Below, piece after piece: positions 1 through 28,096 of a stretch of DNA of 64,000 nucleotides; positions within the stretch are counted from its first letter, which is position 1, and each line of letters starts with the position of its first letter. The notes under the pieces were generated by a model. The model was not told where the DNA came from and searched no databases. It saw only the letters and a program-made list of their open reading frames with translations. This DNA is from Mayamaea pseudoterrestris. Its lineage: Eukaryota. The position numbers were made by a program, and so were the translations under genes. The stretch spans positions 806,001 to 870,000 of the forward strand of contig BROI01000002.1 in assembly GCA_027923505.1 (NCBI GenBank), in the 5' to 3' direction.

Positions 1-1645
1 TTCTTCTCGGCTGCAACCTCCTCCGTTGGTGCGATGGACTTGTTGGTAATGGTCATGCTACAATATCTGGCCATGGTGAGGTAGAATTTAGGTCGCTAAT
101 GAGGTCGTTGTAGCGGGCGTAAGCTTTGTGGAGGTTTGTTATGATGTACTGGATCGCGTGGTGCGTGAGGTTGCACCTCCGTCTGCTTCCGATCCTCGCA
201 GAGGAAGTTGGTCCCGAAAGAACGCGTGCGTCAGGCTGAGATATTCCGACTGTGACGCTTTTAGTAGTCATCGGAATTCTCAACATAGACTTATGCCTCG
301 TCTGGACAGTTGCTTCCATTGTCTACATTGAAGCTGAATAAGAAGGGAGTGACAGGCCCAACCAAATATCATTCATTTCTGATTGATTGAGGTCGAGGGC
401 AATTGAAAACATAAATGACCTTGACAAACTGGCAAAGTTGTTGCGCAATTACATCCCGGTTTTGGATCAACGCAAATGCAGCTACAGCGGTACATAGAGA
501 TACTTCCCCCTACTCGAACTTCTCATTGATAGTGCGAAGCAAGGAGGAGTGAGATGCATATGCAAGTGCCATTGCATATCCGTGATGCCGCTTTATCCGA
601 GAGAAGAAGGACCTGAGCCATCGATCTAGAAGCTGCAAGGATGCATTTTAAAATATGACGCACGAGAGCTATGGATCAAGACAAATACAATCTAGAAATA
701 ATGCTGGCATACGGTAAGAGCCTATTTAAAGAATACTCCTTTACTGCAAAGATTATGCAATAACCAACCGAGCGCTGTCTTTGTTGCCCTCACGCACTCA
801 CGCATGCCGCGGCAATATATTGAAATGTGAGGTAAACTGAGAACAAGCAGAAAAATAAAGCATGAGTAGACTACAAATGCATGTTCACCGCGATAAACGT
901 AGTGATCAAGAAAACACTCGGACATCCAAGGAAGTTGTTTTGCTCCAGGGGACGTTGCCCGTCAGCGAATACTGCAAACGTTTATGGGAAGTTCATCATC
1001 ATTGTGTTCAATAGCAACAATCTTGTTGTCTTGGTTAATTCTTACCTTGCGAGAAAAAGGTCTTGGTTATTGATGCTTGCAATGGAACGAAACATCTGAC
1101 ACTCGGTGCGGCAGCGGCAGTGCGGTGAACAGGTAGCTGCCGTGCGGCGACAAGCGTCTGGCCAGTAACGTCGCGTCCAACATCAATCGTTATGGCGTAG
1201 GAGTGATCCTCAATTAAAAATCGGAGCCCGCGTGCCGAGTGAAAAGGTGCTCTTGCTCGCTGTGGGTCGAGTTTTGAGCAAGCCAAATCATTTGCTTGCC
1301 GCACGGGATCAGCTCATCGAGTGCAAGCGTGAAGTCCCTGGTGGCCAGTGAACGATTGTCACTTCATATTTCAGCTTTTGCATCGAATCTGTGCAATGGA
1401 TGGTGTAGTGTACACAGGATTGTTGCGAGATGCGAGATGTGAGGTGATTCATATCGGATGCGATGCGCAACATTCGATGGATGTGCGTGGCTGTCGCAGC
1501 ACGACTGAATCTTTTAAGCGCGATCTTGACGTCGCAGCAACGTCAGCGGCGCGGCGGATGGTGACCATGACGAAGAAGCGAGAGCTTGATCGGCAGACAC
1601 CGACACGCCATTATAGTCACGTATTGTACCCTTGGCAGCGCAACA

Positions 1646-2458
1646 ATGAAGATGCTAATTACTATAATGCTCCTTATGGGCTCCTGCGCGGCATGGTCAT
1701 CATCACCGTCGCGTCGGTCGTTTCTCGATCAAGTCGCCGCGTCAACGACAGCCATTGTCGGTGGCATGTCCTTGGCGGCGACCAACAATCTGCAACCGGC
1801 CATCGCCGTCAGCGGCTTGAACAAGGTCAATGCTCGTTTGGCTGGATTCGGGCTGGTGCCGTATGAAGGCCTTCCGGATGGATTCACGGTGCTTTCCGAA
1901 ATTTGGGGACGAGGAAAGAACCGATTTCCATTGCTGGTATCCTTTGCCCATCCCATAACGTGGGTCGTGACGCTTCCAAGCAACAATGTCAATGGAGAGG
2001 ACGGAACTGTACAAGCGGGTGACTACAACAAGGGAGACACTGCTACGCTATACGTTTACTCGGAACCCGGACACGTTGGCAGTATTGCTTCGGCGCCCAA
2101 GGAACTCTTTGAAAAGGCACTCATTAAGAGCATTTCACAAAAGGGCGACAACATTTACCAAAACTTCAAGATCACCAAGCTAACGCCAGAAACGATTGGA
2201 AAGCAGGAGTACATGCGAGCTGACTTCAAGTACACGCTACTGACCGGCGCGGGTTTCGAGGTCGATCGCAAGGGTTTTGCCAGCATTACTTCGGAAGGAC
2301 CAGCCGTGGAAGTCCTTTGGACGGCAACGATTGAGTCGCGGTTCAAGAAAATGGAACCAGTGCTAAAGGATATTGTGGCAAGCTTTCGATGCTATGCGGA
2401 TGGCCTCAACTTGTCGGATGACTTGTACGTGGATCCGTCAACGACGAGTGCAGTGTAA
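1646..2458 (+). CDS. PsbP-domain thylakoid lumen protein (probable)
   Basis: ATG at 1646 within ORF 1586..2458. Signal peptide MKMLITIMLLMGSCAA-W, twin-arginine SRRSFL plus hydrophobic stretch ending AIA (Tat lumen signal). The mature region resembles the PsbP/Mog1 fold (F.HP..W, Y.LLTGAGFEVDR, IVASFR). Confidence 0.7.
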   Translation: MKMLITIMLLMGSCAAWSSSPSRRSFLDQVAASTTAIVGGMSLAATNNLQPAIAVSGLNKVNARLAGFGLVPYEGLPDGFTVLSEIWGRGKNRFPLLVSFAHPITWVVTLPSNNVNGEDGTVQAGDYNKGDTATLYVYSEPGHVGSIASAPKELFEKALIKSISQKGDNIYQNFKITKLTPETIGKQEYMRADFKYTLLTGAGFEVDRKGFASITSEGPAVEVLWTATIESRFKKMEPVLKDIVASFRCYADGLNLSDDLYVDPSTTSAV

Positions 2459-2853
2459 GTTTAATTACACGGAACAGAAAATGCTTTATCATTCGCTAAT
2501 TCTAAATTGTAATGTATCATGCAAGTTGTATCGATTTTGGGCTCGATGAACCATAGATCCGCAGCAACTGGGCGTATATGCGACAGCAGAAAGCCGCCAT
2601 AGCATGCCTAAAGGCCACGTACCACGCAACTATACAACTACGGTAGTTGTGCATGCATAAATTCGTCGCGTTGCAACATAGCAAAGTGTGAGCATCTCAG
2701 TTTGATGCGCCCATACATGTGCGGTTGCTAGCAAGCAGATAGCTGGTTATGGATTGCTGGAAGTTTGTCTTTTCATTCGCGCCAGTTGATGCGCTCGAAA
2801 CCACCCATCGCAACGTTTTCATGTTCTTTCAAAACCAGACCAACGATCTGACC

Positions 2854-3450
2854 ATGACCACTGCTGCTGCTGCTGCACCACCCAAGAAGAAAAAGACAAA
2901 GCGTCGTCGCATCAGCAAACATGTGGCAGAGGCAGCCAGGAAGAAAGCTGTAATCGGTGGCGGCGAGAACGAGAAGGTTGCCGCCAAAACCACGGAGCAA
3001 CCGCATGTCGACGCGACAGCTACTACACCTGCCAAGACGGAAGCGGCCAGAGAGAATGAACGCAGCTCAACTCAAGCAATTGCTTATTTAAAGGTCTATA
3101 TAGAATCGAAGAAGGATAAAACGAGCGATAGCAATGACAAAACTGGTGCTTGGAAGTTTAACAAGAATACGCAAACATGGTTGATCAAACACATGTACGA
3201 CGCCGAGATTGTTTCCAAGGCCACATTTTCGTTGCTGCTTGAGTATTTTCATGGATTGGAAGGAAAGACAAAGAGCCGCGTATTGCAGCAAGCGTCCGAA
3301 CGAGTGATAGAATACAAGGAGCATGAGAAGAAACTACAAGAAAAGCAGGGCGATAATTCTGACAGGCAAGCAGAAGAGAATGACGAGGAAAAGACTCGAC
3401 GGAAAGAGTACAAGCGAGCCAGGCAAATAGTGCAACTATTACAAGGATAG
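2854..3450 (+). CDS. WKF-domain protein (C7orf50-like)
   Basis: AIAYL...WKFNKNTQTWLIKHMYD...LLEYFHGLEG motif, Lys-rich N-terminus and RARQIVQLL C-terminus. Start could be 2749, 2821 or 2854. Confidence 0.8.
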   Translation: MTTAAAAAPPKKKKTKRRRISKHVAEAARKKAVIGGGENEKVAAKTTEQPHVDATATTPAKTEAARENERSSTQAIAYLKVYIESKKDKTSDSNDKTGAWKFNKNTQTWLIKHMYDAEIVSKATFSLLLEYFHGLEGKTKSRVLQQASERVIEYKEHEKKLQEKQGDNSDRQAEENDEEKTRRKEYKRARQIVQLLQG

Positions 3451-3567
3451 ATTGCAGGGTGTAGTCTTAATATGTAGTGAGATTATTGATAACATTATCT
3501 CTGGTTGCTTCCTATGAAATTGTCTTGGCGCACGCATTTGAACTTTGCGCGGCCGCGAGCTGCCATT

Positions 3568-4718
3568 TTAGGCCATGGCGCCGTCGACCAAAGCCAACTT
3601 GCATGTTCCGGGGTTCATGCCAGCCTTGGTCATCTTGGTCATGAACAACTGTTCCCATGCGTGGTTGGCAGCGACTTCCGAAACATCGAAAGTAGCCGCA
3701 TCATCTGAGCCGCAGAACTTGCAACCCAACTTGGCAGAGAACTCAATGGCGTAGTCCGTGGTGACCGCATCGTCAGAGCCGCAAAACTTGCAACCAACAG
3801 TCTGCTCTTCTTGAACAATCCAAGCATCATCCGAACCGCAGAACTTGCAACCGTACTTGACAGACTTGGTTTCAGCATTGTCGCTAAATGACAAGCGAGG
3901 CGCCGCCAAAAATATCTCGCTCAACTGCTTGCCTTCCGTCGAGTGAATGGCACCAAAAGAGTCCGCGAGTAACTTGCTGGCAAGTGAAAGGACGCGAACA
4001 GGGGCACTGCTAAAGTCCATCTTGTCGCACTGAACATCAAGGGTAACGGCTTGCTGCTGCGTGTCAAGCTCGTCGTCAGACCCACAGAACTTGCAACCAA
4101 CCTCGATGGCGCGAGGCGCGATGTTAATGCGGCAGTCTTCCGCTTTGCTGAGGGACGCATAAGGTGACAGGGCGAGAATGGCGGTCAACTCTTCCTGCCA
4201 GAGCTCGAGCTTGTCATCGTCAAGAAGGGTAGTATCATCGTCCGAGCCGCAGAACTTGCACTTGAGGTTGTTGTCCGTTCCCTTGGCAACAAAGTAAAGA
4301 CTCTCCATGGCGCTGAGCTCATCGTCCGAGCCGCAGAATTTGCAGCCCGCGCGAAGACCCGTCTTGGGAGTGACCTCCTTTTGCTTGGGAGCAAACGAGA
4401 CGCCATTGGGAGTGGCAGTCACCTTGGCGAGCGACAAGCCATCAGCCTTCTTGTGAACGTTGTTGAACGTCACCTCCAAAGCCTTGGCGCCAAAGGCAAG
4501 TGCCTTGGGAGAGATGTGGTCGAAGTGAATGTTGGCGCAGGAGACCTGAATGTCAAGGTCGGTGACGGGCTGCCAAAATGGAAACGGAACTGTTTCTGTG
4601 AGTGTTTGTGACAAAGTAATTCGTTTCGCTCTCCCATGGCATGTATCTCGCTACTTACCGCATTGTTGGCGTTGGCAAAGGCGCCGAGGACCGAAAAGAG
4701 GGCGAATGAGAGCTTCAT
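3568..4718 (-). CDS. Secreted protein with six CKFCGSDD motifs, paralog A (353 aa, 2 exons)
   Basis: Exon 1 4718-4659 encodes signal peptide MKLSFALFSVLGAFANANNA. GT-AG intron 4658-4570. Exon 2 4569-3568 begins PVTDLDIQVSC. The intron position matches the paralog at 28097. Confidence 0.9.
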
Positions 4719-4760
4719 GGTGGATACGGGATGCGATGATTGTTGAATGTGTTTCGAGGA

Positions 4761-5045
4761 TTGCTCAAATTGGATTTGTGAGCTCGAGTAATGGATGGAA
4801 CGAGAAAGGTGTTCGTGTTTTACTTTGTACCAGACGCGTAGATCTGGCACGGAACAGGACCATGGGTGCTTGTTCTCTGCTTTGGCGGGAGTCCTCGATG
4901 AATCTTGCCCTCTGTCTAAATGCATGTAAAATCGCGATTGGTCCTGCTCGTGAGAATCCTCGCCTTTCCTTCATGGTCATGGTTGGATCGGGGACTCCCG
5001 CATTGCCGCGGTCGATTCGCGCAATCATTTTTGGCGAGAGTCCTC
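4761..5045 (-). promoter_or_regulatory. Upstream region of paralog A with four GAGGACTCCC-like boxes and a conserved 28-bp block
   Basis: Boxes at 4887-4896, 4952-4961, 4990-4999 and 5036-5045. Block 4761-4788 (reverse complement) matches 28033-28060 at 26/28 nt. Confidence 0.55.
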
Positions 5046-5622
5046 GATTTCGATCTGCCCCTCTCCCGCGACCACAACTTCAATGCTTTGACCCCCGCAT
5101 GATGGATATCAATGCCGGCTTCATCTACCCAATGCTTTGCTGTTTAGCTTTGCGATTAAATGTAGCTCTCTATAGAACGCAAGCGAATGATAGAGCGTAT
5201 AAAGCAGAGGAATCTTTATCTGCATTGACAAGGGCGTTACTTGTCGAGCTTACTCTGCGCGATACGGCAATGTCTCTGTATCCTGCTCAATTCTTAAAAA
5301 GCCCACTTGTTGCTTACCACTAGTGTAATGAGATTCCGATCTTCCTTAGGTAAAGCCACCTCGATTAACAGTAAGTTCCGCAATGCAGCACTGCAAATAT
5401 GGATGCGCTCGCCTTCCTCGAAACCAAGCTGCGTCGCGTCGTTTTTTCCAGAACGTCATTCTGTCGCAACACACATTTGCGACATTCGCAAAACCATCAA
5501 ACCACGAGCAGAAGGCGCTTGCACTGCACTTTTCCGGTGCTCCATCAATGCATTCACTCACCTGCATTGTCTTTGTCGTCATTTTATTGCTGTAGTTACA
5601 CAAGGAAGCGCTGTTAGCTAAC

Positions 5623-8330
5623 ATGTCGGCACACTTTGATCCTGACGACGATCGCAAACCGCCTGCTGCAGATGCAAATGCAACTACAGCGAACAGCGAA
5701 CATCATCTCAACGAACATGACCATTGGAGCCGCCTGGTGGAGACAAGTAACAATGTCGCTCCTTCCGATCGAGAAGATACTAGCAGCAACGCTCGCTCCA
5801 CTTTGAATCAGGATGACTTGGATACGGACAGTCGAACGACTGCTGCTGATCACGCTGCTGTCATGCAGCCACCAAGTCACCCCGAACTTACCATGAAGGA
5901 GCGATTGGTCTTGCGGGAACGACAGCGACGCATTGAAACGGAGCGTGCTCGATTGAAGCGTCAATTTGCCTTGAACAATCATGGCATTAGTGAGGAGGAG
6001 GAGGAAGCTGCCTATCATGCATCGGAAACCGACATGCGCGACACGACGAGCGTGGCCGAGGAGTCCACCAAGGCGCATCCGGATGATGAGTCGAATGACG
6101 AGAGTTTTGGATTCAACATGGAACGGTTTTTGCGAAATAGTGACAGCTTTCATCCGCAACTGGAGCCGACAACGGAGGAATTACAACATCACGGCGGCAA
6201 TGGAGGAGAATCTGGTGGAGTGGTCATGGAACGATTTCTTCGATCTGAGCCAATGGTGCAAGACATTGTTGAGAATGGCGAAGATCTTGGTGGACGACAC
6301 TCAATATCCTTCGACGAAGATGATACTGACAGACAAGTCATAGAGAATCAGGACAATCGTCCGACAGAGTCCTTCATGACTTATGGAAATGATACCCAAA
6401 TGTCAATGAACGCGTCGGTGCAAGTGGAAGCCGACGACGATGCGGACGATGCTGACGTCGAACTTGATGGATCGTTTACCCCTTTGGTGATGAACCATCA
6501 AGACTCATCCTTTAATGACGCTCACTCCAACGCTTCGACGGAACCTCGCGTCTTGCGCTTGACTGAAGCCGACATGCAGGAGTTCCATGGCATTGATCAA
6601 GCAAGCATTGGCAATGCTCCTCCATCGGAGCGTGACGCGGAGGAAATTTCGGAGATTGGAGAATTGGCTCACTTTGAACGAGGTGACGGCATTTACCACG
6701 CATCTGGAGTGGAGACACCAACCACGGCGCAGGAATCGGCGTCTATTGTTAGCGGAGGCAACTTTAGCGCGGAGCACAGGACCAGTGCACCAAGCTTGGC
6801 CAGTCTGCAGGCCGCGTCGCATGCGTCATCAGATCGTGATCCAGCAGATTTGTTGAACAATCATAGTGATGGGCATTTGCCTGACGATGTCGGGTCAGTC
6901 GGCTCGATGGTTGATTCAATCAATGAAACGCATCCACCAAGTGTGGCTGCGCGCGAAGACACGGAGAATGGCTTCGTGGTTGATGGCTTGGCTCTCTCAC
7001 AAGATGAAGACGATGATCCTGAATTAAATGTCACTGTCAATGGTGGACCTCTCGATATGCCAATTTACCTTGACGAGGAGGCGGAAGCTGCCATTCATCG
7101 CGCGCTTCGTCCAAGCGTGCCGCCACTTGACTTGCTGCGATCTACATCGCCATTGGTTGACTTTCCAGCATTGAACGAGCCAATTGCTATGACAAGTTTC
7201 GCCGACCACAATGTCGACACTCCATCTTCTCCAGTCGGCAACATTGTTCCAATGGTCAGCTCGTTTCGCAACGCCTCGGACGAGGAACCTTGGTCGCCTG
7301 CTGGCCAAATGCACGTCTCGCCGATTGTAAGTCACAGACAGCGGGGAGTATCACTAAATGGGTTCGAGCGAAACGGGTTGGAATCAGCGCCCCTCTTTTC
7401 GCATGTAGTTGGTACAAACGAGTCAACACCATTGCTACTGCATAGTGACGTGCCGCCGGACATTGTCGTCAAGCGTATGCACTCGGATCCTGGATCTGCA
7501 GGGCTCGCGTGCCCGCCACATGGATGCGGCAATAGGAAATCGATCCAGTCCGCCGTCGACTCGGTCTTTAGCGGCATTCGGTCGGACGACGATTCTGTGA
7601 AGGAGGAAATTAACAACGACTGTGTAAATTACTTGAACAGTTCCATAATCGCAAGAGGTAAGCTGGAGGTGGATTCCAACAGTGCAAACTTCATTCTAAA
7701 AGTATCTCACGCACGCTCTTAACTTTCCGCATAGCTTTCCCTGAACGAATGTTTGCACTGACGGTGACGCTCATCTTTGAGATTCCAGTGCTCCTCATGA
7801 TATCAGGCGGATCAGATCAGCTATGTAGATTGATTGGCCGTTCGCGCTACCAACTGTTAATTGGCTTTCTACCATTGACATCCGCAATTTCTGGCAACGT
7901 TGGCCTCCAAGCTAGTACGCTGACAACTCGCGCGATTAGTCATAACCACGTGACACCAAAGTCGTGGTGGAGCTGGTTGGTGCAAGAAGTTGGAGCCGCA
8001 TGTTATCTGGGACTTGGTATGGGCTTACTTCTGGGTACAATAAGCTTTATTGCATCGGGGCAAGACTATGGGTTTGCTCTTACGATATTTACGGCTCAGT
8101 TCATTTCCGTTTTAACAGCGGGTATTACAGGAACTTTTGCTCCATTACTGTTCAGCTTCATTTTCAGACGCGACAGCGGAAAATGGGGTGGCCCTCTCGA
8201 GACTGCGATACAGGACATAATTGGCAGCTTTGCAATGATTGTCATCTCGTATCACCTTCTGAGACTTTTTGGGCCCCATGAAATAGCCGCTAATGATATG
8301 TGCGGAAGTGATGAGTACGAAGGAAGTTAA
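5623..8330 (+). CDS. MgtE/SLC41-type divalent cation transporter with long acidic N-terminus (2 exons)
   Basis: Exon 1 5623-7657, intron 7658-7734 (GT..AG, frame restored), exon 2 7735-8330. MgtE membrane motifs PLTSAISGNVGLQASTLTTRAI and GPLETAIQDIIG. Confidence 0.85.
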
Positions 8331-8470
8331 ATGATTTCTTCATAATAGACAACTACTATAACCTCTCACGAATTAACGCTCTGGTGCCTTGACAAATCCA
8401 CTGCCATTGTTCAAAGGGATTTATTGCGAGTACGAGAATTTGATATACAAATATGCATTGTTACTATAAG

Positions 8471-9721
8471 TTAGTTGTCGTTATTGTCCAGCATTGGCAT
8501 CTCCACTTCGTCTGTTCCGACTCCAATCACGCCGCCACGAAAGTCGTCAATGCGAATAAGTATAATGAGCACTGGCTCAATGACAAGCTCAACCTCATGG
8601 TAGCGATACCAAATGGGCCCGAGCGCATCCAGCAGCAAACATCGCGATAGCTTGGACAAGACACGCGATTCATCCGACATGCTCAAGGCGCAACATGTCC
8701 CACACACCATGACCATCAAGTCCCTGTCATGCGAGTGCTGCAACAAGAGACGCACGAGGCAGGAGACCGCCTTGGTTTTCATCACAAGGTGTTGCTTCGC
8801 CTCGCCACTGCCATTGGCCAAGTGCCACAGTATGCCGCACGCCGCCATGAGAGTCGTTGACTCGGTCGCCGTCGGGCGATATGCAACCAAGACTTTGAGC
8901 ACTGGCTCGAGACAATCGAGCATGTGTGCCGATTTGTAGTTGGCAGCCACACACTTGTCAACCAACAGGAAGATCAACTGACACGATAAGCCTGTAATGT
9001 CAACATGCTCATCATGAATGTGCATGACTGTCTTCATGACCGCGAGAATGTCATGGTCAAGGAGTGCCCGGCAAAATTCAAAGTGCTGCTTGCACAAGCT
9101 GAATAGCGAGCTCAGGATGGACAGGACAATCTTGGGTCGAGCCACATGCATGCGAATGGCCATGACAATATGTACGTGAACCTCCTGCATGCCAGTGAAC
9201 AAGCGAGGATGCACCAGCTTGGCCAAGATGGTGATTGCATGAGATTGAATGAATGCATGTTCTGAGAAGGTTTGCATAGCAAGAACAAGAATGTCCACCA
9301 GGTGTGATCGCATGAGACTGCCCTTTAGCTCACCCAGCTGTCGGCGGGACATGCGGAGACGCCAAAACTCATGGCCACGAGTGTTCCGCAACGATCCCGT
9401 CTCGATGCGAACCACGTGCAGCAGTAGATTGCAGCCGAGCTCCTGAACGGCTTGCGAATGCGAAAAGCACAACATCTGATCAAGCACATCTTCAAAGCCT
9501 TCCTCGTTGATGAATGATCGAAAATTTTTCCGGTCCTTGATTGCTCGAAAAGTGTTGGTCAGCTCCTTGATAATGTCATATTCAAGTGACTTGTCGTCTT
9601 GTTCGGCTTCCATACAATGCATCGACACATCAACAGACTCAGTTTCTGAAGAGTTTCTTGTCGCTGCTGCTGCTGCTGATTGGAAGCAAGTCATGCTGTT
9701 GTCTCGTTCCATATAGTGCAT
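8471..9721 (-). CDS. Armadillo-repeat-like helical protein
   Basis: 416-aa ORF with ARM-like units (VQELGCNLL, LVLAMQTF..HAFIQ, AACGILWHLA, VCGTCCALS). Confidence 0.65.
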   Translation of the reverse strand: MHYMERDNSMTCFQSAAAAATRNSSETESVDVSMHCMEAEQDDKSLEYDIIKELTNTFRAIKDRKNFRSFINEEGFEDVLDQMLCFSHSQAVQELGCNLLLHVVRIETGSLRNTRGHEFWRLRMSRRQLGELKGSLMRSHLVDILVLAMQTFSEHAFIQSHAITILAKLVHPRLFTGMQEVHVHIVMAIRMHVARPKIVLSILSSLFSLCKQHFEFCRALLDHDILAVMKTVMHIHDEHVDITGLSCQLIFLLVDKCVAANYKSAHMLDCLEPVLKVLVAYRPTATESTTLMAACGILWHLANGSGEAKQHLVMKTKAVSCLVRLLLQHSHDRDLMVMVCGTCCALSMSDESRVLSKLSRCLLLDALGPIWYRYHEVELVIEPVLIILIRIDDFRGGVIGVGTDEVEMPMLDNNDN

Positions 9722-10052
9722 GCTTTTTTAAAGCGCTTGCAGTGGATGTGAACATGTTGGTGTGAATCAAAACGACCGACGCGAATTCGTGCGCGAGGAA
9801 CACATCCTGCTCGCCCGCAGCGTTCTTGACCCTAGCCTTTCTGAATCACATTCGTTTTCATTCGCAGTTGAAGAACGTCGATCAAGTCCCGCGAGTTGAA
9901 ATTGGTGGCAGCTACTGATGTTATAATGGCAATGTATCTTCATTTGTGCACTAACAAAGTATATTTGAAGTGGAATATGAATTTTAAAAGTGTTTAGGTC
10001 TGTATTATTTCTATTTACATGAAGGTTGAAGGTGTTGCGAGCAAAAGCCCAG

Positions 10053-11054
10053 TCAGGGGCGCAATGTTCGTGCAAGACTTGTTCGGACCCGCACACCTTG
10101 CTCGATCGTTTTAAAGAGCAATCGCTGCTTTCTGCACTTTCGCATATAAACGAAACCAAGTTGATCAAGTTGCGCCATGCGCTCCGCGGTAATATGGCCG
10201 GGCTTGCCTTGCATATACAGTGTATGTTGTCGCCGCTGAGCCTTGCACCAAATCGCGAGTGCAGGATTGTTTGGATAAAGCGTTGGAACGTAACAATGAC
10301 CATGCTCCTTTTGATACTGCTTGAGCTCTTGTAAATGCTCCAACCAGGTGTCCTTTCGAACATCCCAGCAAAAACCAATCGACTCCAACGCTTCAACCCG
10401 ATCCGCCGTCATGAAAGACGGCTTGTTTCGCAAAAAGCGCTGGTAGTGGTAGCGTTGTTGTTTCGCCCAGCGTACAAGAGCTGCATCATTCTTGTAGCTG
10501 GCATCCTTGTTCTTGTAGGCAACGAAACTTTCGAAGAACCATGTCCACTTGTCGGTTTGGTACTTGCGGAAGCGAGGACGATGCGAGGTTACTGTGTCAT
10601 CGCCATTATGAGGTCGTTTCTTGCTAGATCCAGTGTCCATTGTAGAACTAGTTGATGCTTCAGTAGTGACGCTGCTGTCGGAGGAAATGGGATGAATAAT
10701 GTCCCTCGAAATGGAACTGAGAAACAATGTTGGCGGTACCAACAGTGGAGGTTCGAGAATGGGTGTCGTCATGAAAGGATCGCTGTCGTCAAGTCCGTCG
10801 CCAACTTCATGACTCTTGTGGTCGTTCGCAAGTTTGAGTATATCTGGCAGAGTCATGTTCTTGTTCATTGCTGTAGTTGTTGAATGTAGTGGGAGTTGCG
10901 GCGGTGGAAAGCAGTTCTGCATCGAAACACCATTGAAAATTGCCGAGTTGAGCAATGGAAATTGTCCCGTCCATCCAAGGTTGTTCATATACATGACTGT
11001 GTATCCATTCCAGAAGAGTGGGAGCTGCGTGAAAGGAGTCGGGAAAAAGCTCAT
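10053..11054 (-). CDS. Helicase-associated (HA) domain protein
   Basis: Two HA repeats: LVRWAKQQR...RVEALESIGFCW and WLEHLQELKQYQKEHGHCYVP...LAIWCKAQR...RMAQLDQLGF. This family is expanded in diatoms. Confidence 0.85.
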   Translation of the reverse strand: MSFFPTPFTQLPLFWNGYTVMYMNNLGWTGQFPLLNSAIFNGVSMQNCFPPPQLPLHSTTTAMNKNMTLPDILKLANDHKSHEVGDGLDDSDPFMTTPILEPPLLVPPTLFLSSISRDIIHPISSDSSVTTEASTSSTMDTGSSKKRPHNGDDTVTSHRPRFRKYQTDKWTWFFESFVAYKNKDASYKNDAALVRWAKQQRYHYQRFLRNKPSFMTADRVEALESIGFCWDVRKDTWLEHLQELKQYQKEHGHCYVPTLYPNNPALAIWCKAQRRQHTLYMQGKPGHITAERMAQLDQLGFVYMRKCRKQRLLFKTIEQGVRVRTSLARTLRP

Positions 11055-11261
11055 GGTGCCAATGTTCGGTTCATTCGCAAGCCGAATTTGTGAGCGTTTT
11101 CGCGATTCGCGAACGATTCAAGTCGTCATCAAAGCGGCACTCTTTATGTCTGACCGGTACTGGCAACCCGACAATTCCCTCGCGCGCAACTTTTGCCATC
11201 CGTCACCATGAAATTACACACCATAACATCAGCTAAATCAGAGCAGTCTCATGAATAGAGC

Positions 11262-12745
11262 ATGAGATGCAGCAGTAAAGGTTTGATAGCATACTTGGGT
11301 TTCATTACTCCTGCTAAAGCCTTCCATTTAACGAGTCGTCAAGCGGCTCATCATCATTCTATTCATTCGCGACACTCGATGATGTCCAATGCACCATTAG
11401 TAACTTTACCCAAAATCTCCAAGAGAATAGAAAAGACGCTGGATCCATGTGTCGTGCTCATGAAGGAAATGATTGGGTCATATTCGGCCGAATGGCAAGA
11501 CCGAGGAGGTATATACAGCTTGGCGCAAGGCGTCGTTTACTGGAAACCTCCTCCGACAGCACAATCGGCACTCTTGGAAGCTGTCCAACAATCGAGCGAG
11601 CCAGAAAGTACTTTGCACATGTATGGTCCAGATGAAGGTTTGCCGGAACTCCGTCAAGTCTTGCAGGAAAAGATTCAAACCGAGAATCTATTGAATAACC
11701 ATCACGTCATGGTTACGGTTGGCGCCAATCAGGCTTACATGAACTGCGTCTTGACACTATTGGAATCCAATAACAAGGCAGTCGTTTTCAAGCCCTACTA
11801 CTTTAACCATGTCATGGCGCTGCAAATGGTCTTGTCGGATGCGGATGAGCAACTGTTGGTCGGACCGAGCAGCGAAAACGGCATTCCCGATTTAGCTTGG
11901 CTGGAAGCGCAGCTTCAAGCTGACCCTTTCATCAAAGTGGTAACCATGACCAATCCCTGCAATCCTACTGGAGTGTTACTGGAAAGATCCGTCGTGCAGC
12001 AAGCTGTAGACTTGTGTCGCAAGCAAGACGTTTGGCTCGTCTTGGACTGCACGTACGAGTACTTTGTTTCCGACAGCTTTGATGGCTGCTTTTCCGATGC
12101 TCACGTCATTCACATTTTTTCCTTGAGCAAGGCCTATGCACTGGCTGGGTATCGATGCGGGTACATGGTCATGAGCAAAAGTGCTGATCCGCTCTATCAG
12201 CAAGTCATGAAGGTGCAAGGTGAGTGAATGGAATATCAGAGTTACCGTTCGTATTTCGTCGCCATGAATTCACTGACGCAGCCATGCGTCAGACACTATC
12301 CCAATCTGCCCCAGCACAATCTCGCAAGTTGCTGCACTTGGCTCGCTCCAGGCTGGTCGAGATTGGGTGCGCGACAAGGTTGCAACCTTGTCAGCGGGTC
12401 GTGATGCAATTTTCAAGGCACTCGCGCCGTGCATTCAGGTCATGGGCGGTTCCGGTGCCATGTATGTCATGTGCAAAATAGATGGAGATGATCAGGAGTT
12501 TGCGCGACGACTCGTTCAGGATTACGGTGTCGCTGTTATTCCTGGATCCTTTTGTGGATATCCGGGCTGGCTGCGCGTGTGCTACGCCAACCTACCGCCC
12601 GCTCAGTGTTTGGAGGTACGCTCTCGGTCTGTGTTACTGTACATGCTATAGACAAGGTATGATGACTCACAATTCTTCTCTTTATTAGGCGGCTGAGCGC
12701 CTGGCTTTGGGCTTGAAGGAGTTGCTGGCAAAGACAGAAAAGTGA
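11262..12745 (+). CDS. PLP-dependent class I/II aminotransferase (ISS1/VAS1-like), probably plastid-targeted (3 exons)
   Basis: Exons 11262-12219, 12293-12615, 12689-12745. Motifs SLAQG, YGPDEGLPELR, NPCNPTG, SLSKAYALAGYRCG, and QDTIPICP across intron 1. N-terminus has an AKA-F cleavage motif. Confidence 0.88.
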
Positions 12746-12888
12746 AACATCCCATGCTCGACTTTTCTTGCGCGCCATTTGCGTTAAAATTGATTGGCAC
12801 TCATTGTGTCAAGATAAAAGTTTGTTATGAAATAGGTTTTAACTTTGGACAGGATTAATATACAAGGCGTCATATAAGCATTTCCCTC

Positions 12889-14253
12889 TCACTTCTCGTC
12901 TGATATTCGAAACAAATCCTGCAGCTTTATCCGAGTTCTTGTCTCGTTCGCCATAGTGGACACTTGGTAGCTAGCCAACAAGATCTTGGCCTTTTCCACT
13001 CCAACATTATCAATAAAGCCGCGCAACCACGACCGCATATAATAGTCTGGTCCCTCATGTACGTTTGACTTGTAGTGAAACAAGTCATAGGTCCGTCGAC
13101 TATCATTGCGGGCATTGTAGCGATCCCACGGTCCGATATAGTGCGACACAGTCAGTGGATACCGCTGCACGTCGTCAAACTTGATTTGAAACAAGGTGCG
13201 GCACAGCGCCTTGCTCGGTCGATGAATGCTAAAGAGCTTGGTGTACATTTCATCGTCCGCTGGTACGCGCGAAACGTCAATAATCACCTTTGGTTGTCCG
13301 TTCCGCTCCTTGTCGTCGTCGGTGGTATGATACCACCATCGAAGAGTTTCAAACTTGCGTGCATTGTAGCCGGATGGCGTCGTGGCAGCTATTGCGGCAG
13401 CCTTTGCCGTGTCGTCCTTTTCGACAGACCCAAAGAGTACGCGCGGCATGGACAAGCAAGGCAAATTAATCTTTTCATATAAATAAGCGTCGCGATACAT
13501 GCTGCTCAAGTAGTTGAACAAGCCGTCGGGTTGCTTCAATGATGGAACTGGTAACACGCCACGCAAATCACCCTTGCGCTTGTGTCGATTCAGTACCACA
13601 TACTCGTCGGTATCTATATGCATGGTCAGTGTTCGTCCAGCGTCGCGATGAAACGACAAACACTTGCTCAGAAACGAGACTTGCCGAAATCGGTGATTCG
13701 CAATGCGCACCTTGTCGTCACGCGTCGCCGTGCAGTCAACCACGTTGCAGGTTGGAATGCGCAGCCACCGCGATCGATTGCTGTCGAGTGCGACGCGATT
13801 CGGTTCAATGAAATTGCCAGTCTTGAGAAAGGACTCCGGCATGTACTGCGTGTCGTTCCATGTAACAATCTGCAGATCCGTCAAGTTGCGCCATGTTGCA
13901 AAGACTTGCTCGGGTGACGATTGGCTGCTGGGATCAATGGCGACAAGCAAGTGTCGCATTCGCATGGTATGGTAGTGGTAAGCGATCCATTCATTGAGCA
14001 ATACATTGTCATCCTTAATTAGCAGGCAGGCTGATAGACTGTCTGGAGTTATAGTACTGCTACTATTGCTGCCTGCTAATGAATATTGTTCCACGGTGAT
14101 GCGTCGCTGAAAGGCTCGCAAGTGCTGCTCGAGGGCCGAACCATTGACGAAGCGCAAGTCTCGATCTCTGCATATCAATGTGACATTGACAGATATGACA
14201 GACAGTAGTGCTGCAGCCAAGACAATGATTGCAGGTCGATGCATGGACTGCAT
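12889..14253 (-). CDS. GT-A fold glycosyltransferase (GT92/GT2-like), type II membrane protein
   Basis: N-terminal TM helix, SACLLIKDDN.LLNEWIAYHY, DxD motif HIDTDEY. Confidence 0.75.
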   Translation of the reverse strand: MQSMHRPAIIVLAAALLSVISVNVTLICRDRDLRFVNGSALEQHLRAFQRRITVEQYSLAGSNSSSTITPDSLSACLLIKDDNVLLNEWIAYHYHTMRMRHLLVAIDPSSQSSPEQVFATWRNLTDLQIVTWNDTQYMPESFLKTGNFIEPNRVALDSNRSRWLRIPTCNVVDCTATRDDKVRIANHRFRQVSFLSKCLSFHRDAGRTLTMHIDTDEYVVLNRHKRKGDLRGVLPVPSLKQPDGLFNYLSSMYRDAYLYEKINLPCLSMPRVLFGSVEKDDTAKAAAIAATTPSGYNARKFETLRWWYHTTDDDKERNGQPKVIIDVSRVPADDEMYTKLFSIHRPSKALCRTLFQIKFDDVQRYPLTVSHYIGPWDRYNARNDSRRTYDLFHYKSNVHEGPDYYMRSWLRGFIDNVGVEKAKILLASYQVSTMANETRTRIKLQDLFRISDEK

Positions 14254-14548
14254 CTTGTTCGAAAATGGTCGTGATGGTTGTTTTGCAGCGCGCAGCTCGT
14301 CCCTCGCGGAAGCGCCGAAACCGTTTGGTTACACGAGTCGCGCCAGTCGGCTCGTAAGATACTGTCTCAGCGTTAGCCAGTACGACATTTTAGCGAGAAA
14401 AGGTGCCGACGAATGGAACGACGCAACGCTCACACATAATGAGGTGACTCCTTCATCTTTATCACCCTTTGCACTCATCCCCGCTTCGAGCACCAAACGA
14501 GCGACCAAGGCATCATTGGTTACAATCTTAATAGCATTATAGATCAAT

Positions 14549-16126
14549 ATGGATGCCAATCACAGCGACAGCCATCAAGATTCAGCAGCAACTGCTGCCA
14601 AGGAACAATTGTCTCTTCATGTTTCGAACGAGGATTTTGCTGACCAAAATGACGACGAATGGATGACATCGTTCCAAGACTTTCAAAGCAGCAAACATCC
14701 AGTGACTGGCAAGTATGTCATGACTGCAACGCGACTTGCATGGTTGCAAACGCAGGAGGTCTTGTACGCTCGTCGTCAAAATCCGCGCATTCTGTCAAAT
14801 GACCGCCTCGCAAGGCTCAAGAGTCTTGGCTTTTTCGCGCATGATACGTCAGTGTCATCGCTACCAAGTCATGCTGAACCGATCGTGACAGTGTCTTCAA
14901 CTCCGGGCTCCCACATTTCGCCGCGCAACGAGTCGAATGAATCATGCTCGCATCATTCTCATTCTAGTAATGCGTCGCCAAGTGCGCGGCAAAAGCGTTT
15001 GCGGCTACCAATAGTAGATGCATCCAACTGGATACTTCCGCCGGGTCGCGAGAAACACTGCTGCCCAGACTACGAATCTAGACAATGCTGCGCTCAAAAG
15101 GACAAGTGCCACTTCATTCATTTACAGTATCCATGGGGTCATGCTGCTATTGAACAATATTGGCCAAGGTGCTCCCAGCGACTGCCGTCGTATCTTAGCC
15201 AGAGAAAGTATAATGAGCGCGTCTTGTGTTTGTCAACTTTTTGTGACGATGATTGGTGGTATACCGCTCGATATTCATCTGATAGCTTGGACCCTGCCGA
15301 TGAGGGCAAAATGATCGTTTTAGCTGAAGGCGGTCGAACGGCTTGCCGGAGTGAACAAGGAATTTACTGGTACCCATGGGAGAGAGACGCGAAGGAGGCA
15401 CTCGAGCGTGTGGTAATCCTCACGTATTGGGCTTCGCAGCACAGCATTCAAGCGAACCGAGAAATCGTCGGGTCTGCTTTTGATACTATTGCAAGAAAGT
15501 TTTCCGAAACCGCAGCACACATAACCATGCCGACTCAAGAAAGAAAGCGGCAATTCTCAGAAGCTGATCTTGAAACTACTGACGATGAAGAGCGTGACCG
15601 CCCCGTAAAGCTTCGCTGGAATGCTACAGACAGGGACGAACTTGACGGTTTTCAGCTCACACCTGAACTAAAGCGTCTCGCGGCGCTGCAGAAACAAGTG
15701 GAACAACTTGCGTCGTCACTCAACGTTGGCGACATGTTGCCGATGGGACCTCTTTCGTATCTTGAACGCGCGGTTGTCACAGACACAGCATCGAAGCGTG
15801 GTCTTGGCTACTACATAGAGCTAGTTTTAGAGAAAGCTGAATGTTCGACGAAGGGGTCTCTCAAGAACAAGGCTACCCGGAAACACATAACGATTGTGAA
15901 CTCTTCGTACAATATGCAATTCCAAAAGTATCGCGCTTCATGCAAACCTGCAGATATACGCCCGCCAATGATCAATGTTAAAGGGAGAGTTTTGCCTATG
16001 TGCATCGCTTACCATGTCCGAGGCCAATGTTGGTCTAGTTGTGCAAAACAACATGACCACCACCGTCACAATGAAGAGCAAGACAAAGAGTTATTGCATT
16101 GGTGCAGTCTTGCCTTTTGTCACTAG
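14549..16126 (+). CDS. Hypothetical protein with degenerate HA repeat and two CCCH-like zinc fingers
   Basis: 525-aa ORF. HA-like WMTSFQ...LAWLQTQ...LSNDRLARLKSLGF, plus CPDYESRQCCAQKDKCHFIH and CIAYHVRGQCWSSCAKQHDH. Confidence 0.6.
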   Translation: MDANHSDSHQDSAATAAKEQLSLHVSNEDFADQNDDEWMTSFQDFQSSKHPVTGKYVMTATRLAWLQTQEVLYARRQNPRILSNDRLARLKSLGFFAHDTSVSSLPSHAEPIVTVSSTPGSHISPRNESNESCSHHSHSSNASPSARQKRLRLPIVDASNWILPPGREKHCCPDYESRQCCAQKDKCHFIHLQYPWGHAAIEQYWPRCSQRLPSYLSQRKYNERVLCLSTFCDDDWWYTARYSSDSLDPADEGKMIVLAEGGRTACRSEQGIYWYPWERDAKEALERVVILTYWASQHSIQANREIVGSAFDTIARKFSETAAHITMPTQERKRQFSEADLETTDDEERDRPVKLRWNATDRDELDGFQLTPELKRLAALQKQVEQLASSLNVGDMLPMGPLSYLERAVVTDTASKRGLGYYIELVLEKAECSTKGSLKNKATRKHITIVNSSYNMQFQKYRASCKPADIRPPMINVKGRVLPMCIAYHVRGQCWSSCAKQHDHHRHNEEQDKELLHWCSLAFCH

Positions 16127-16374
16127 CCTTACCAACACCACATTTTTTCAAGAATAACAACCTGTTCATTTATTCATCTACCAATTTTCTTGTCGCGCAA
16201 CGAGGAACTTTAACTGTAAGTATGAATGCTCCGTTCGTCGAAGATAGCAAAACCCGCATCCATGATTTTTGGCGATTTCAACACCGATAAGACAAAACGA
16301 GTCGCGATCCGACATGCGTCCTGGTGCATGGCTGTTCGACCACCATGGGATTCACAATCAACGACGCAGAAAGC

Positions 16375-21519: not shown

Positions 21520-21688
21520 TCAAGCGTTACGGATGGGGAGCTACGCAATATCATGCCACCATGTGACGTTGGTTTCGCGCCAACTTTGTCGACCTACTAC
21601 CAATCCGGTTGAGTACCTTTACTAAGAATAAGCATGTAAATCAGATATTCTGAGAGTTTAATGCTTTTACTCTTGTATATTGACCTTT

Positions 21689-23661: not shown

Positions 23662-23823
23662 GGTCGTCGTTTCGCGGCGCGCGCTGATTGTTGTCACAGA
23701 TGTCGCAGCACGATTGAAAGGACCATATGTGACCAAATTCTGCAGTATAGTTTCCACAAGTTTCATGAGCACGAACATACAGTAGTGAAATTGAGGAAGA
23801 GTGGAGTCTATTTGTTAACGTTG

Positions 23824-28060: not shown

Positions 28061-28096
28061 ATCGCATAACAGGTCCACCAAGCAGCCACTCCAACC

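What the first reader, a model, noticed from the sequence alone, without database searches (positions are those of the whole stretch)
3568..4718. Secreted protein carrying six invariant CKFCGSDD motifs: candidate new metal-binding or peptide-precursor system
Seen: after splicing, a 353-aa signal-peptide protein has six exact CKFCGSDD octapeptides at irregular spacing, five preceded by Gly. The spacers between motifs are unrelated to one another. The paralog at 28097 has the same six. Known: CxxC dithiols with adjacent acids bind Cu/Zn/Cd/Fe or do redox chemistry, and repeated identical cores in a secreted precursor typify eukaryotic RiPP precursors (fungal dikaritins, plant BURP-fused precursors). 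Inference: this is either a multivalent extracellular metal/redox scaffold or a precursor releasing identical CKFC-containing peptides. I recognise no named family.
Basis: partly seen in the sequence, partly recalled or inferred. Interest (0 to 1): 0.88.

Follow-up and report, generated by a model that had tools for sequence, protein, structure and literature searches.

The report
Secreted diatom protein with co-evolving cysteine knuckles
A diatom secreted protein made of two small folded modules carries six identical cysteine-aspartate loops that stay identical within a species but differ between species, which marks an undescribed protein family whose loops probably bind metal ions or one shared partner.

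Summary
A two-exon gene on the minus strand (4718..3568) gives a 353-aa protein with six exact CKFCGSDD, five of them after Gly. The paralog at 28097 has the same six. Both equal the annotated hypothetical proteins of Mayamaea pseudoterrestris. One sub-claim fails: the spacers are related.

The protein is two homologous ferredoxin-fold (SEA-like) modules of about 127 aa. They belong to an unnamed family, whose four named members are all raphid pennate diatoms. The family has no Pfam model, no PDB sequence relative and no paper that I could find. Its usual form has one CxxC-x-x-DDD loop per module, straight after strand 3. The Mayamaea lineage multiplied the loop.

The new result is concerted evolution. 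At the variable motif positions, copies within one protein are 88% identical. Copies at the same site in other lineages are 26% identical. In Mayamaea this is selection, not recent gene conversion. The 12 copies differ at 7 of 8 third codon positions and at 0 of 16 first or second positions.

Function is inferred only. I favour metal-thiolate knuckles acting as equivalent units (0.35). The rivals are disulfide/Ca2+ loops and a recognition or precursor motif. RiPP hallmarks were not found.

The parts
4659..4718 (-). Gene A exon 1: start codon and 20-aa signal-peptide-like N-terminus
   Evidence: The spliced product equals P0003. Hydropathy heuristic.
4570..4658 (-). Gene A intron, 89 nt, GTAAGT...CAG
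   Evidence: The annotated protein of 353 aa requires exactly this splice. No RNA reads were available.
3568..4569 (-). Gene A exon 2: 333 aa (P0001) plus stop
4114..4566 (-). Module 1 (aa 22-172). Fold order: strand 23-32, helix 41-63, strand 67-73, strand 111-117, helix 138-153, strand 164-172
   Evidence: AF2 model. Module HMM hit.
3583..4059 (-). Module 2 (aa 191-349). Fold order: strand 192-201, helix 211-232, strand 234-242, strand 296-303, helix 319-335, strand 343-349
4321..4344 (-). CKFCGSDD copy 1 (aa 96), extra copy in the strand2-strand3 loop of module 1
4237..4260 (-). CKFCGSDD copy 2 (aa 124), the family's usual position after strand 3 of module 1
4072..4095 (-). CKFCGSDD copy 3 (aa 179), in the linker between modules
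3826..3849 (-). CKFCGSDD copy 4 (aa 261), extra copy in the strand2-strand3 loop of module 2
3769..3792 (-). CKFCGSDD copy 5 (aa 280), extra copy in the strand2-strand3 loop of module 2. It aligns with copy 1
3700..3723 (-). CKFCGSDD copy 6 (aa 303), the family's usual position after strand 3 of module 2. It aligns with copy 2
28097..29234 (+). Paralog B: exon 1 at 28097..28162, intron 28163..28241, exon 2 at 28242..29234. 352 aa. Six CKFCGSDD begin at 28464, 28548, 28719, 28953, 29013 and 29082
   Evidence: It equals P0004.

Best explanation
Shown. This is a real, selected gene. It encodes an acidic protein (pI 4.7) with a signal-peptide-like N-terminus. The protein is two homologous ferredoxin-fold (SEA-like) modules and belongs to an unnamed family whose four named members are all raphid pennate diatoms. 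The family's usual module runs: strand 1 ending in Cys, a helix ending in N-x-V-H, strand 2, a long loop rich in Gly, Trp and Tyr, strand 3 ending in the first Cys of CxxC, an acidic DDD, a helix starting A-W-E, and strand 4 starting with Cys. The Mayamaea lineage multiplied the CxxC-x-x-DD loop. It has two copies at the usual place and four extra copies in loops and the linker. The knuckle is the most constrained part of the protein, and its copies evolve in concert. They are identical inside a protein and different between lineages.

Inferred. The knuckles are the working parts, and they work as equivalent, interchangeable units. Most likely they are thiolate/carboxylate sites for a divalent metal (Zn, Cu, Cd or Fe). 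Two CxxC knuckles would close one Cys4 site, in the manner of a zinc ribbon or a zinc hook. The partner knuckle could be 15-24 residues away in the same chain or in another chain. The protein would then act as a multivalent extracellular metal binder or metal-bridged cross-linker. If any knuckle can pack against any other, or against one common partner, selection would keep all copies identical and let them shift together.
For: Gene and family: searches give the model and the annotation. One search found 38 proteins at E<=1e-3 among 1.84 billion representatives. I dropped two of them: P0032, an unrelated CCHC-knuckle repeat protein, and P0018, an FN3-rich protein with no module hit. Named members are Phaeodactylum tricornutum B7FXS6, Fistulifera solaris GAX26482.1 and Entomoneis paludosa MMETSP1065, plus Mayamaea.

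Fold: AF2 gives strand-helix-strand-strand-helix-strand twice in P0003 (pLDDT 69.9) and in the family member P0011 (73.5). In both models the top full-scan structural matches are extracellular SEA or MAD domains. These are TMPRSS6 (Z 7.3, rmsd 3.0 over 105-106 residues), MUC16-type SEA (6.3-7.4) and Gpr126 (6.2-8.0).

Secretion: 22 of 25 members that have an N-terminal extension have a hydrophobic signal-like start.

Constraint: between paralogs A and B the scaffold has dS 0.83 and dN 0.139 over 278 codons. The 48 motif codon pairs show 17 synonymous and 0 nonsynonymous differences. Across the 12 copies, 7 of 8 third positions vary and 0 of 16 first or second positions vary (Fisher p 2.3e-5). 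In DNA contigs of the same organism, variants inside motifs were 3 synonymous and 0 nonsynonymous. Elsewhere in the CDS they were 9 synonymous and 11 nonsynonymous.

Concerted evolution, Mayamaea clade: the four variable motif positions match in 341/388 comparisons (88%) between sites of one protein. They match in 146/560 (26%) between the same site in different lineages. 0 of 5000 shuffles reached the observed value. Concerted evolution, wider family: in 18 multi-module proteins the 21-aa loop is 611/693 (88%) identical between modules of one protein, against 1712/3459 (49%) for the scaffold. Between proteins the figures are 39% and 33%.

Metal reading: C80 and C83 are 98% conserved and D86-88 are 75-87% conserved, together with H38 (87%) and W102-E103. 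By the topology of the fold, the H, the CxxC, the DDD and the W-E lie at the same pole of the module. This is inference; no coordinates were available. The clade's G-C-x-x-C-G, and CPLCG in P0007, have the form of a rubredoxin or zinc-ribbon knuckle (recalled). Pfam matches only zinc-ribbon families: Lar_restr_allev at 30.8 bits against a cut-off of 28.6, and TFIIB ribbon at 26 against 29. His is frequent in or beside the motif in relatives: CHLC, CHYC, CPHC, HCKLC, YHCTLC, WHCNLC, HGCRHC.
Against: No metal, thiol or localisation data exist. A protein of the secretory pathway would normally have its cysteines oxidised. Its 16 Cys fit eight disulfides as well as they fit metal sites.

All motif loops are modelled with pLDDT below 50, so no knuckle pairing is seen. 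Close relatives have 5 or 7 knuckles, and several usual members have 3 modules. Intramolecular Cys4 pairing therefore cannot be general.

The usual family motif is C-x-L-C-P, which is not a classic C-x-x-C-G knuckle. The Pfam zinc-ribbon scores are sums over repeated CxxC pairs. The paralog stays below every cut-off.

Neither gene is listed in the held supplementary tables of the copper-exposure paper. Those tables hold only selected gene sets.

The SEA-like Z scores are under 8 except for one of exactly 8.0, a range the tool calls middling.
Confidence: 0.35

Rival explanations
1. Disulfide-stapled calcium loops. Each CxxC forms a disulfide, within the motif or to a neighbouring knuckle, that stiffens a turn. 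The following Asp run binds Ca2+ or a cationic surface. This would resemble the acidic Cys-containing calcium-binding repeats of extracellular matrix proteins. The protein would be a structural component of the matrix or cell wall.
For: Signal-peptide-like N-termini occur in 22 of 25 members. The pI is 4.7, with 49 D+E against 32 K+R. The Cys count is even at 16, and every usual module has 4 Cys. D86-88 are conserved at 75-87%. The usual form C-x-L-C-P-x-D-D-D recalls the C-x-x-C-P plus Asp pattern of thrombospondin type 3 repeats (recalled, not tested beyond Pfam). SEA-like extracellular folds top the structural scan.
Against: Pfam reports no calcium-binding or TSP_3 family. His is enriched next to the Cys, and the G-C-x-x-C-G form fits thiolate metal sites better. 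On its own this reading does not explain why the non-Cys, non-Asp positions must be identical in all copies.
Confidence: 0.25
2. Recognition or processing motif. The identical loops are multiple copies of one ligand, modification site or excised peptide, read by one lineage-specific partner such as a receptor, a protease or a modifying enzyme. Co-evolution with that partner makes all copies change together.
For: Copies are identical within a protein while orthologous sites differ. This is the pattern of multi-copy peptide precursors (recalled: yeast alpha-factor, UstA). Purifying selection on every residue of the motif, not only C and D, is very strong. The loops are predicted flexible and exposed, with pLDDT below 50. 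Basic residues often precede the block in relatives, for example RR or RRRK in P0006, P0014 and P0034.
Against: No common flanking cleavage site surrounds the six copies. They are preceded by RAG, NLK, EVG, KYG, TVG and KLG, and followed by ELSA, DTTL, ELDT, AWIV, AVTT and AATF. Ungapped flanks of different sites are 16% identical. The spacers are a conserved folded domain, not disposable linkers. In usual members the identical block includes strand 3, a central strand, so excision would destroy the fold. No UstYa/DUF3328, BURP, tyrosinase or similar family was found in the 20 ORFs searched in window 1571..39044. Diatom genes need not be clustered, so that last point is weak.
Confidence: 0.15
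3. DNA-level homogenisation without a special function. Short-tract gene conversion or repeated local duplication keeps the loop-coding stretches alike. The motif is just one generic conserved loop of the fold.
For: In the wider family the identical block is 22-30 aa (66-90 nt). That is long enough for conversion between tandem modules of one gene. Extra copies in the Mayamaea clade must have arisen by duplication of an existing copy.
Against: In Mayamaea the copies are saturated at synonymous sites. Mean differences per 24 nt are 3.2-3.5 within a gene, 2.8 between the same site of the paralogs, and 3.6 between different sites of the paralogs. So there has been no conversion since a duplication with scaffold dS 0.83, yet there are no amino-acid changes in 48 codon pairs. 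A 24-nt tract is very short for conversion. DNA of other members could not be obtained, so this stays untested outside Mayamaea.
Confidence: 0.1

Closest known systems
SEA domain and SEA-like membrane-adjacent domains (mucins MUC1/MUC16, TMPRSS6, Gpr126, protocadherin-15 MAD12)
   Same: An extracellular module of about 120 aa with strand-helix-strand-strand-helix-strand order, often in tandem. These domains give the best full-scan structural matches for both models.
   Different: There is no sequence match to the Pfam SEA model. No G-S-[VI]-V-[VI] autoproteolysis motif occurs in 0 of 40 family proteins. SEA has no CxxC-DDD loop and no Cys pair on strands 1 and 4. Z is 6-8 only.
Zinc-ribbon / rubredoxin-type knuckles, DnaJ CxxCxGxG repeats, Rad50 zinc hook
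   Same: Repeated C-x-x-C-G knuckles. Neighbouring copies lie 15-24 residues apart. Pfam zinc-ribbon models are the only hits. The precomputed Pfam list of P0007 and P0008 includes the Rad50 hook, PF04423. The idea of two knuckles closing one Cys4 site, within or between chains, comes from these systems (recalled).
   Different: Those are cytosolic or nuclear mini-domains. Here the knuckles sit in loops of a secreted ferredoxin-fold scaffold, are followed by Asp-Asp, occur in odd numbers in relatives, and are identical to each other.
Multi-core eukaryotic RiPP and peptide precursors (fungal dikaritin UstA type, plant BURP-fused and orbitide precursors, yeast alpha-factor)
   Same: A signal peptide and several identical short cores in one polypeptide. 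The cores differ between species.
   Different: In those precursors the whole repeat unit, including flanking recognition or Kex2 sites, is repeated and the spacers are not folded domains (recalled; for flax orbitide precursors only the abstract start in the listing was seen). Here the flanks are dissimilar, the scaffold is a conserved fold, and no tailoring enzyme was seen nearby.
HMA / Atx1-type heavy-metal-associated domain
   Same: A ferredoxin-like fold carrying one CxxC metal site per module, often in tandem modules.
   Different: The HMA motif M-x-C-x-x-C lies in the strand1-helix1 loop (recalled). Here the CxxC follows strand 3. There is no Pfam HMA hit. HMA proteins are cytosolic.
Diatom pTF.CatCh1 / ISIP2b cysteine-rich proteins
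   Same: Heterokont-restricted proteins with a signal peptide and a CXXC proposed to bind metal (PMC7972479, passages read).
   Different: Those have 20 Cys, three CXC motifs, one CXXC and a C-terminal transmembrane helix. The Mayamaea protein has no CXC and no hydrophobic 19-mer (maximum hydropathy 1.05). The two did not find each other in any search here.

Membership tests
Unnamed diatom CxxC-DDD module family (defined here) | Match to the 127-position module HMM built from family members | tested here: met
   Both halves of P0003 match: E 7e-22 and 1.4e-18 for the N-parts, 4.6e-14 and 3.9e-11 for the C-parts. In the window only genes A and B match.
Unnamed diatom CxxC-DDD module family (defined here) | Cys at the end of strand 1 and the start of strand 4, CxxC after strand 3, acidic run, N-x-V-H and A-W-E helix ends | tested here: met
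   Conservation over 52 modules is. Mayamaea has VSC/VQC, FNNVH/FGAIH, LWQ/AWE and DCR/TCK.
SEA domain (Pfam PF01390) | Strand-helix-strand-strand-helix-strand extracellular module resembling solved SEA domains | tested here: inconclusive
   The topology is met. SEA entries rank first, but at Z 6.2-8.0, which the tool calls middling. Foldseek gives only generic double-ferredoxin folds.
SEA domain (Pfam PF01390) | Sequence match to the SEA profile | tested here: not met
   PF01390 is not listed for P0001 or P0002 at E<=10, nor for 8 further members at E<=1.
SEA domain (Pfam PF01390) | G|S-V-V-V-type autoproteolysis motif between strands 2 and 3 (motif recalled; not all SEA domains have it) | tested here: not met
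   0 of 40 family proteins contain G-S-[VI]-V-[VI].
Zinc ribbon (Cys4 from two knuckles) | Two CxxC knuckles about 10-30 residues apart | tested here: met
   The gaps between motifs are 20 aa (copies 1-2), 11 aa (copies 4-5) and 15 aa (copies 5-6), counted from the end of one octapeptide to the start of the next.
Zinc ribbon (Cys4 from two knuckles) | Profile match above the curated cut-off | tested here: inconclusive
   For P0001, Lar_restr_allev scores 30.8 against 28.6, summed over 4 stretches. The paralog scores 18.6. TFIIB ribbon scores 26 and 25 against 29.
Zinc ribbon (Cys4 from two knuckles) | Bound metal, with knuckles on paired hairpins | not testable with these tools
   The loops have pLDDT below 50. 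No coordinates or metal data were available.
Multi-core RiPP precursor | Each core flanked by repeated recognition or cleavage sequences | tested here: not met
   The flanks of the six copies share no site. Ungapped flank identity between sites of one protein is 316/1940, or 16%.
Multi-core RiPP precursor | Fused or neighbouring tailoring enzyme (UstYa/DUF3328, BURP, oxidase) | tested here: not met
   Nothing is fused. The 20 ORFs in 1571..39044 gave WKF, MgtE, HA, aminotransferase, LTN1-like, NPR2, aldo-keto reductase, amino-acid and sugar transporters, and zf-MYND/ankyrin. The rest of the genome could not be searched.
Multi-core RiPP precursor | Released or modified peptide product | not testable with these tools
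   This needs mass spectrometry.
HMA / Atx1 metallochaperone domain | M-x-C-x-x-C in the strand1-helix1 loop, and a Pfam HMA match | tested here: not met
   The CxxC follows strand 3. There is no HMA hit.
pTF.CatCh1 / ISIP2b | About 20 Cys with three CXC and one CXXC, and a C-terminal TM helix (as described in PMC7972479) | tested here: not met
   There is no CXC in P0003 and no TM-like stretch. The paper's passages were read.

The most novel reading that the evidence does not exclude
The knuckle loops are a lineage-specific recognition code. A secreted SEA-like scaffold displays, or releases, several identical CxxC-Asp peptides that co-evolve with one dedicated partner, either a receptor or a modifying or processing enzyme. 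That would give species-specific cell-cell, gamete or substrate recognition in raphid pennate diatoms. It would be a new kind of eukaryotic multi-core display or precursor protein, in which the cores are grafted into the loops of a folded domain instead of lying between linker repeats.
Probability: 0.15. Interest if true: 0.85.

Novelty: new variant of a known kind. Interest (0 to 1): 0.6.

Why it matters
Diatom extracellular and cell-surface biology covers adhesion, gliding, metal handling, wall assembly and mating. It rests on many lineage-specific proteins of unknown function. This finding defines one such family, with a clear module, a model-organism member (Phaeodactylum tricornutum B7FXS6) and a testable functional unit.

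The evolutionary pattern is the unusual part. A short motif is dispersed through a non-repetitive folded scaffold. It is held identical in up to six copies by selection on the protein, not on the DNA, yet it differs between lineages. That pattern demands either a common partner or self-pairing. It offers a compact system to study how dispersed motifs co-evolve.

If the knuckles bind metals, the family is a candidate extracellular metal buffer or cross-linker. The organism is used for metal ecotoxicology tests.

Tried and rejected
RNA evidence: no RNA holder was listed. The three coded runs that were laid behave as DNA contigs: they run through the intron and the intergenic DNA, and show no joint. 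Expression and splicing were therefore not tested directly.

Self-association with Zn (two copies of residues 21-353 plus 4 Zn, collected): no answer (score 0.00). This counts neither for nor against.

ESM Atlas gave no usable hit for P0003 or for one module of P0015.

The profile search with alignment A2 in the word-indexed database returned only 7 proteins, all already in hand. The search with P0031 returned only itself.

A4 and P0021 found nothing. So no DNA of other family members was obtained, and the gene-conversion test could not be extended.

No whole genome is held for this window, so other paralogs in Mayamaea were not counted.

Papers: the motif strings and the accessions of the Phaeodactylum protein occur in 0 papers of the searched library. 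'diatom + SEA domain + cell wall' gave one preprint, about another protein, MRP1. 'diatom, CXXC, secreted...' led to pTF.CatCh1, a different family.

The held supplementary tables of the copper paper do not list MPSEU_000139 or MPSEU_000140. Full expression tables were not among the held files.

Earlier findings of this scan: nothing.

Considered and dropped:
- Plastid targeting. Gene A has F after a possible GA|F cleavage site, but the paralog has none, and no transit-peptide-like region follows (sequence reading).
- Hedgehog/intein-like G|C self-cleavage. There is no Hint-like domain, and Gly is not conserved before the Cys in the family.
- A duplicated neighbour gene. The ORFs beside A and B are unrelated.
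Full report
1. THE OBSERVATION

Reading 3300..5000 and translating gives a minus-strand gene. Exon 1 is at 4718..4659 and encodes MKLSFALFSVLGAFANANNA. An 89-nt GTAAGT...CAG intron lies at 4658..4570. Exon 2 is at 4569..3568. The 353-aa product is identical to the annotated hypothetical protein MPSEU_000139000 of the freshwater raphid diatom Mayamaea pseudoterrestris (P0003). The genome paper says its gene models were built from RNA-seq with funannotate (PMC9724779, section 2.3 read).

CKFCGSDD occurs exactly six times, at residues 96, 124, 179, 261, 280 and 303. Five copies follow Gly and one follows Lys. No 8-mer recurred in 10000 shuffles of the protein.

The paralog spans 28097..29234 on the plus strand, with a 79-nt intron. 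It gives 352 aa (P0004), is 78% identical, and has the same six octapeptides. My module HMM finds only these two genes in the window.

One sub-claim fails. The two halves of the protein align at 30% identity (E 4e-14), with copy 1 opposite copy 5 and copy 2 opposite copy 6. The spacers are therefore related.

2. WHAT IT IS

Pfam gives only zinc-ribbon-type matches that ride on the CxxC pairs. Lar_restr_allev scores 30.8 bits against a cut-off of 28.6 for A and 18.6 for B. TFIIB ribbon scores 26 and 25 against 29. PDB sequence searches gave 0 hits, both with the protein and with a family profile.

An exhaustive phmmer scan of 1.84 billion representatives found 38 proteins at E<=1e-3. I dropped two. 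P0032 is an unrelated protein with repeated CCHC knuckles. P0018 is an FN3-rich 2146-aa protein with no module hit.

The rest share a module of about 127 aa, in 1-4 tandem copies. Over 52 full modules the conserved positions are C10 (98%), L30, N35, H38 (87%), L48, G76, C80 and C83 (98% each), D86-88 (75-87%), W102 (100%), E103, C124 (100%) and I126.

Named members are Phaeodactylum tricornutum B7FXS6 (XP_002179610 / XP_002185189), Fistulifera solaris GAX26482.1 and Entomoneis paludosa (MMETSP1065). All are raphid pennates. The others come from unnamed assemblies. Eight usual members have no Pfam hit above any cut-off. 22 of 25 members that have an N-terminal extension start with a hydrophobic, signal-like segment.

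3. FOLD

AF2 of P0003 with 39 aligned sequences has mean pLDDT 69.9. AF2 of the family member P0011 has mean pLDDT 73.5. Both give two strand-helix-strand-strand-helix-strand modules.

- Foldseek finds only generic double-ferredoxin folds.
- The full scan with VIA-align ranks extracellular SEA and SEA-like domains first for both models. These are TMPRSS6 (Z 7.3, rmsd 3.0 over 105-106 residues), a MUC16-type SEA domain (7.4 / 6.3), Gpr126 (8.0 / 6.2), protocadherin-15 MAD12 (5.7 / 6.1) and MUC16 SEA5 (5.8 / 5.9).
- The tool warns that Z under 8 is middling. I therefore call the fold SEA-like and do not claim membership. The Pfam SEA model does not match, and no G-S-V-V-V-type site exists (0 of 40 proteins).

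In P0011 the first Cys of CxxC is the last residue of strand 3. In Mayamaea, copies 2 and 6 hold this usual position. Copies 1, 4 and 5 lie in the strand2-strand3 loops, and copy 3 lies in the inter-module linker. All six sit in stretches with pLDDT below 50.

By the topology of this fold, the Cys of strands 1 and 4 are neighbours at one pole, which suggests a disulfide. The conserved His, the CxxC, the Asp run and the Trp-Glu lie at the other pole. This is inference; I had no coordinates.

4. THE UNEXPECTED PART: CONCERTED EVOLUTION OF THE KNUCKLE

The closest relatives are 55-61% identical. They keep the scaffold and most motif sites, but each has its own motif, repeated identically:

- P0005: HCKLCANDD in 4 of 5 copies (the fifth has S for N).
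- P0006 / P0009: CRFCGGDD in 5 of 5 and 3 of 3 copies.
- P0007: CPLCGRDD in 5 of 5 copies.
- P0008: CPLCGRDD in 4 of 5 copies (one is CPHC).
- P0012: CTLCRKDD in 3 of 3 copies.
- P0010: CH[LY]CGRDD in 5 of 7 copies.

MAFFT places the sites of different proteins in the same six columns. At the four variable positions of the octapeptide, identity is 341/388 (88%) between different sites of one protein. It is 146/560 (26%) between the same site in different lineages. 0 of 5000 shuffles reach the observed value. My ungapped flank comparison in that call did not separate the classes (16% against 18%). Orthology of the sites therefore rests on the alignment.

Sites are also gained and lost. Site 1 is absent in P0006-8, and site 3 is absent in P0005 and P0010.

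The same holds in the wider family. In 18 proteins with two or more full modules, a 21-aa window around CxxC is 611/693 (88%) identical between modules of one protein. The scaffold is 1712/3459 (49%) identical. Between proteins the loop is 39% and the scaffold 33% identical. Four near-duplicate cluster members were left out of that count. In P0013, P0021, P0029 and P0033 the loop is 21/21 identical while the scaffold is 40-49% identical.

5. SELECTION, NOT RECENT CONVERSION, IN MAYAMAEA

- The 12 copies differ at 7 of 8 third codon positions and at 0 of 16 first or second positions (Fisher p 2.3e-5).
- Between the paralogs the scaffold has dS 0.83 and dN 0.139 (278 codons). The 48 motif codon pairs carry 17 synonymous and 0 nonsynonymous differences.
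- Copies within a gene are as different at the DNA level (3.2-3.5 per 24 nt) as copies between genes (2.8 at the same site, 3.6 at other sites).
- In DNA contigs of the same organism, 3 variants fall in motif codons and all are synonymous. Elsewhere in the CDS, 9 are synonymous and 11 are not.

How the motif shifted in all copies between lineages is not shown. Selection by a common partner or self-pairing, and rare short conversions, both remain possible. I could not obtain DNA of other members.

6. MECHANISM

The following is shown: a secreted-type, acidic, two-module protein whose knuckles are its most constrained and co-evolving parts.

My favoured inference (0.35) is that the knuckles are metal-thiolate/carboxylate sites that act as equivalent units, with two knuckles closing one site within or between chains. 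The supports are:

- the G-C-x-x-C-G / CPLCG form;
- the zinc-ribbon-like spacing;
- Pfam's zinc-ribbon-only hits;
- frequent His at the motif in relatives;
- the co-location of the conserved His and Glu.

Several facts count against it. The secretory route is oxidising. Relatives have odd knuckle numbers. The family's usual form is C-x-L-C-P. No data exist on metal, thiols or location.

The rivals are:

- Disulfide-stapled Ca2+ loops (0.25).
- A recognition, modification or precursor motif read by one partner (0.15). It explains the identity best, but it lacks repeated flanks, has a folded scaffold, and showed no tailoring enzyme in 20 ORFs of window 1571..39044.
- Neutral DNA homogenisation (0.1).

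7. COMPARISON AND NOVELTY

The protein works like, or looks like, several known things:

- SEA-like extracellular modules, in fold.
- Zinc-ribbon, DnaJ or Rad50-hook knuckles, in motif.
- HMA domains, as a ferredoxin fold with a CxxC, though the CxxC sits in a different loop.
- Multi-core peptide precursors, in having identical cores, though the architecture differs.
- The diatom pTF.CatCh1 / ISIP2b proteins (PMC7972479, passages read), which have a different Cys pattern and a TM helix.

It is a member of none by the tests run. I found no paper that holds the motifs or the accessions of the Phaeodactylum member. Supplements of bioRxiv preprints, and most large supplementary tables, could not be searched. 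The genes may therefore appear unnamed in expression or proteome lists. I rate it a new variant of known kinds (a known fold and a known motif type) with an unusual evolutionary behaviour, and set interest at 0.6.

Noticed in passing
window 5596-8330 (+): A gene with an MgtE divalent-cation-transporter domain (ORF 7662..8327, E 7.5e-20) lies head to head with gene A. A long upstream ORF, 5596..7719, has no Pfam hit and may belong to the same gene. The two genes are about 880 nt apart. Paralog B has no such neighbour: the ORFs beside A and B are unrelated.
   Followed up: partly
window 3869-4252: DNA contigs of the same organism carry a second haplotype-like version of gene A. It has many single-base differences and, in one run, a 3-nt in-frame insertion behind 4231. 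This fits a diploid, heterozygous locus.
   Followed up: partly
window 34290-35888 and 37443-39044 (+): Two neighbouring ORFs of 533-534 aa both carry a MYND zinc finger (the first also an ankyrin hit). They look like a tandem gene pair.
   Followed up: no
window 21692-23814 (-) and 23967-25568 (-): An NPR2 (nitrogen permease regulator 2) gene and an aldo-keto reductase gene are each split over two long ORFs, presumably by introns.
   Followed up: no
P0032 (representative library, not in the window): An unrelated 489-aa protein repeats ACKFCGSTEHLTRQHK about seven times. It has the same CKFCGS hexapeptide, but as a CCHC-type knuckle. This shows that the hexapeptide occurs in zinc-knuckle contexts.
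   Followed up: no
P0014, P0022, P0029, P0036 (family members): One subfamily ends in a conserved tail, K-C-G-L-R-A-C-A-[DE]-E, after the last module. Its meaning is unknown.
   Followed up: no
P0010 / P0045 and P0036 (family members): Source annotations call these family members 'ribosomal protein S14' and 'predicted lactoylglutathione lyase'. These are probably automatic mislabels, caused by the CxxC pairs or by chance.
   Followed up: no
bioRxiv 10.64898/2026.03.25.714164 (passage read): The mating-type-related protein MRP1 of Pseudo-nitzschia multistriata is described there as SEA-like and possibly involved in pheromone signalling. Whether it is related to this family was not tested, because no sequence was at hand.
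   Followed up: no
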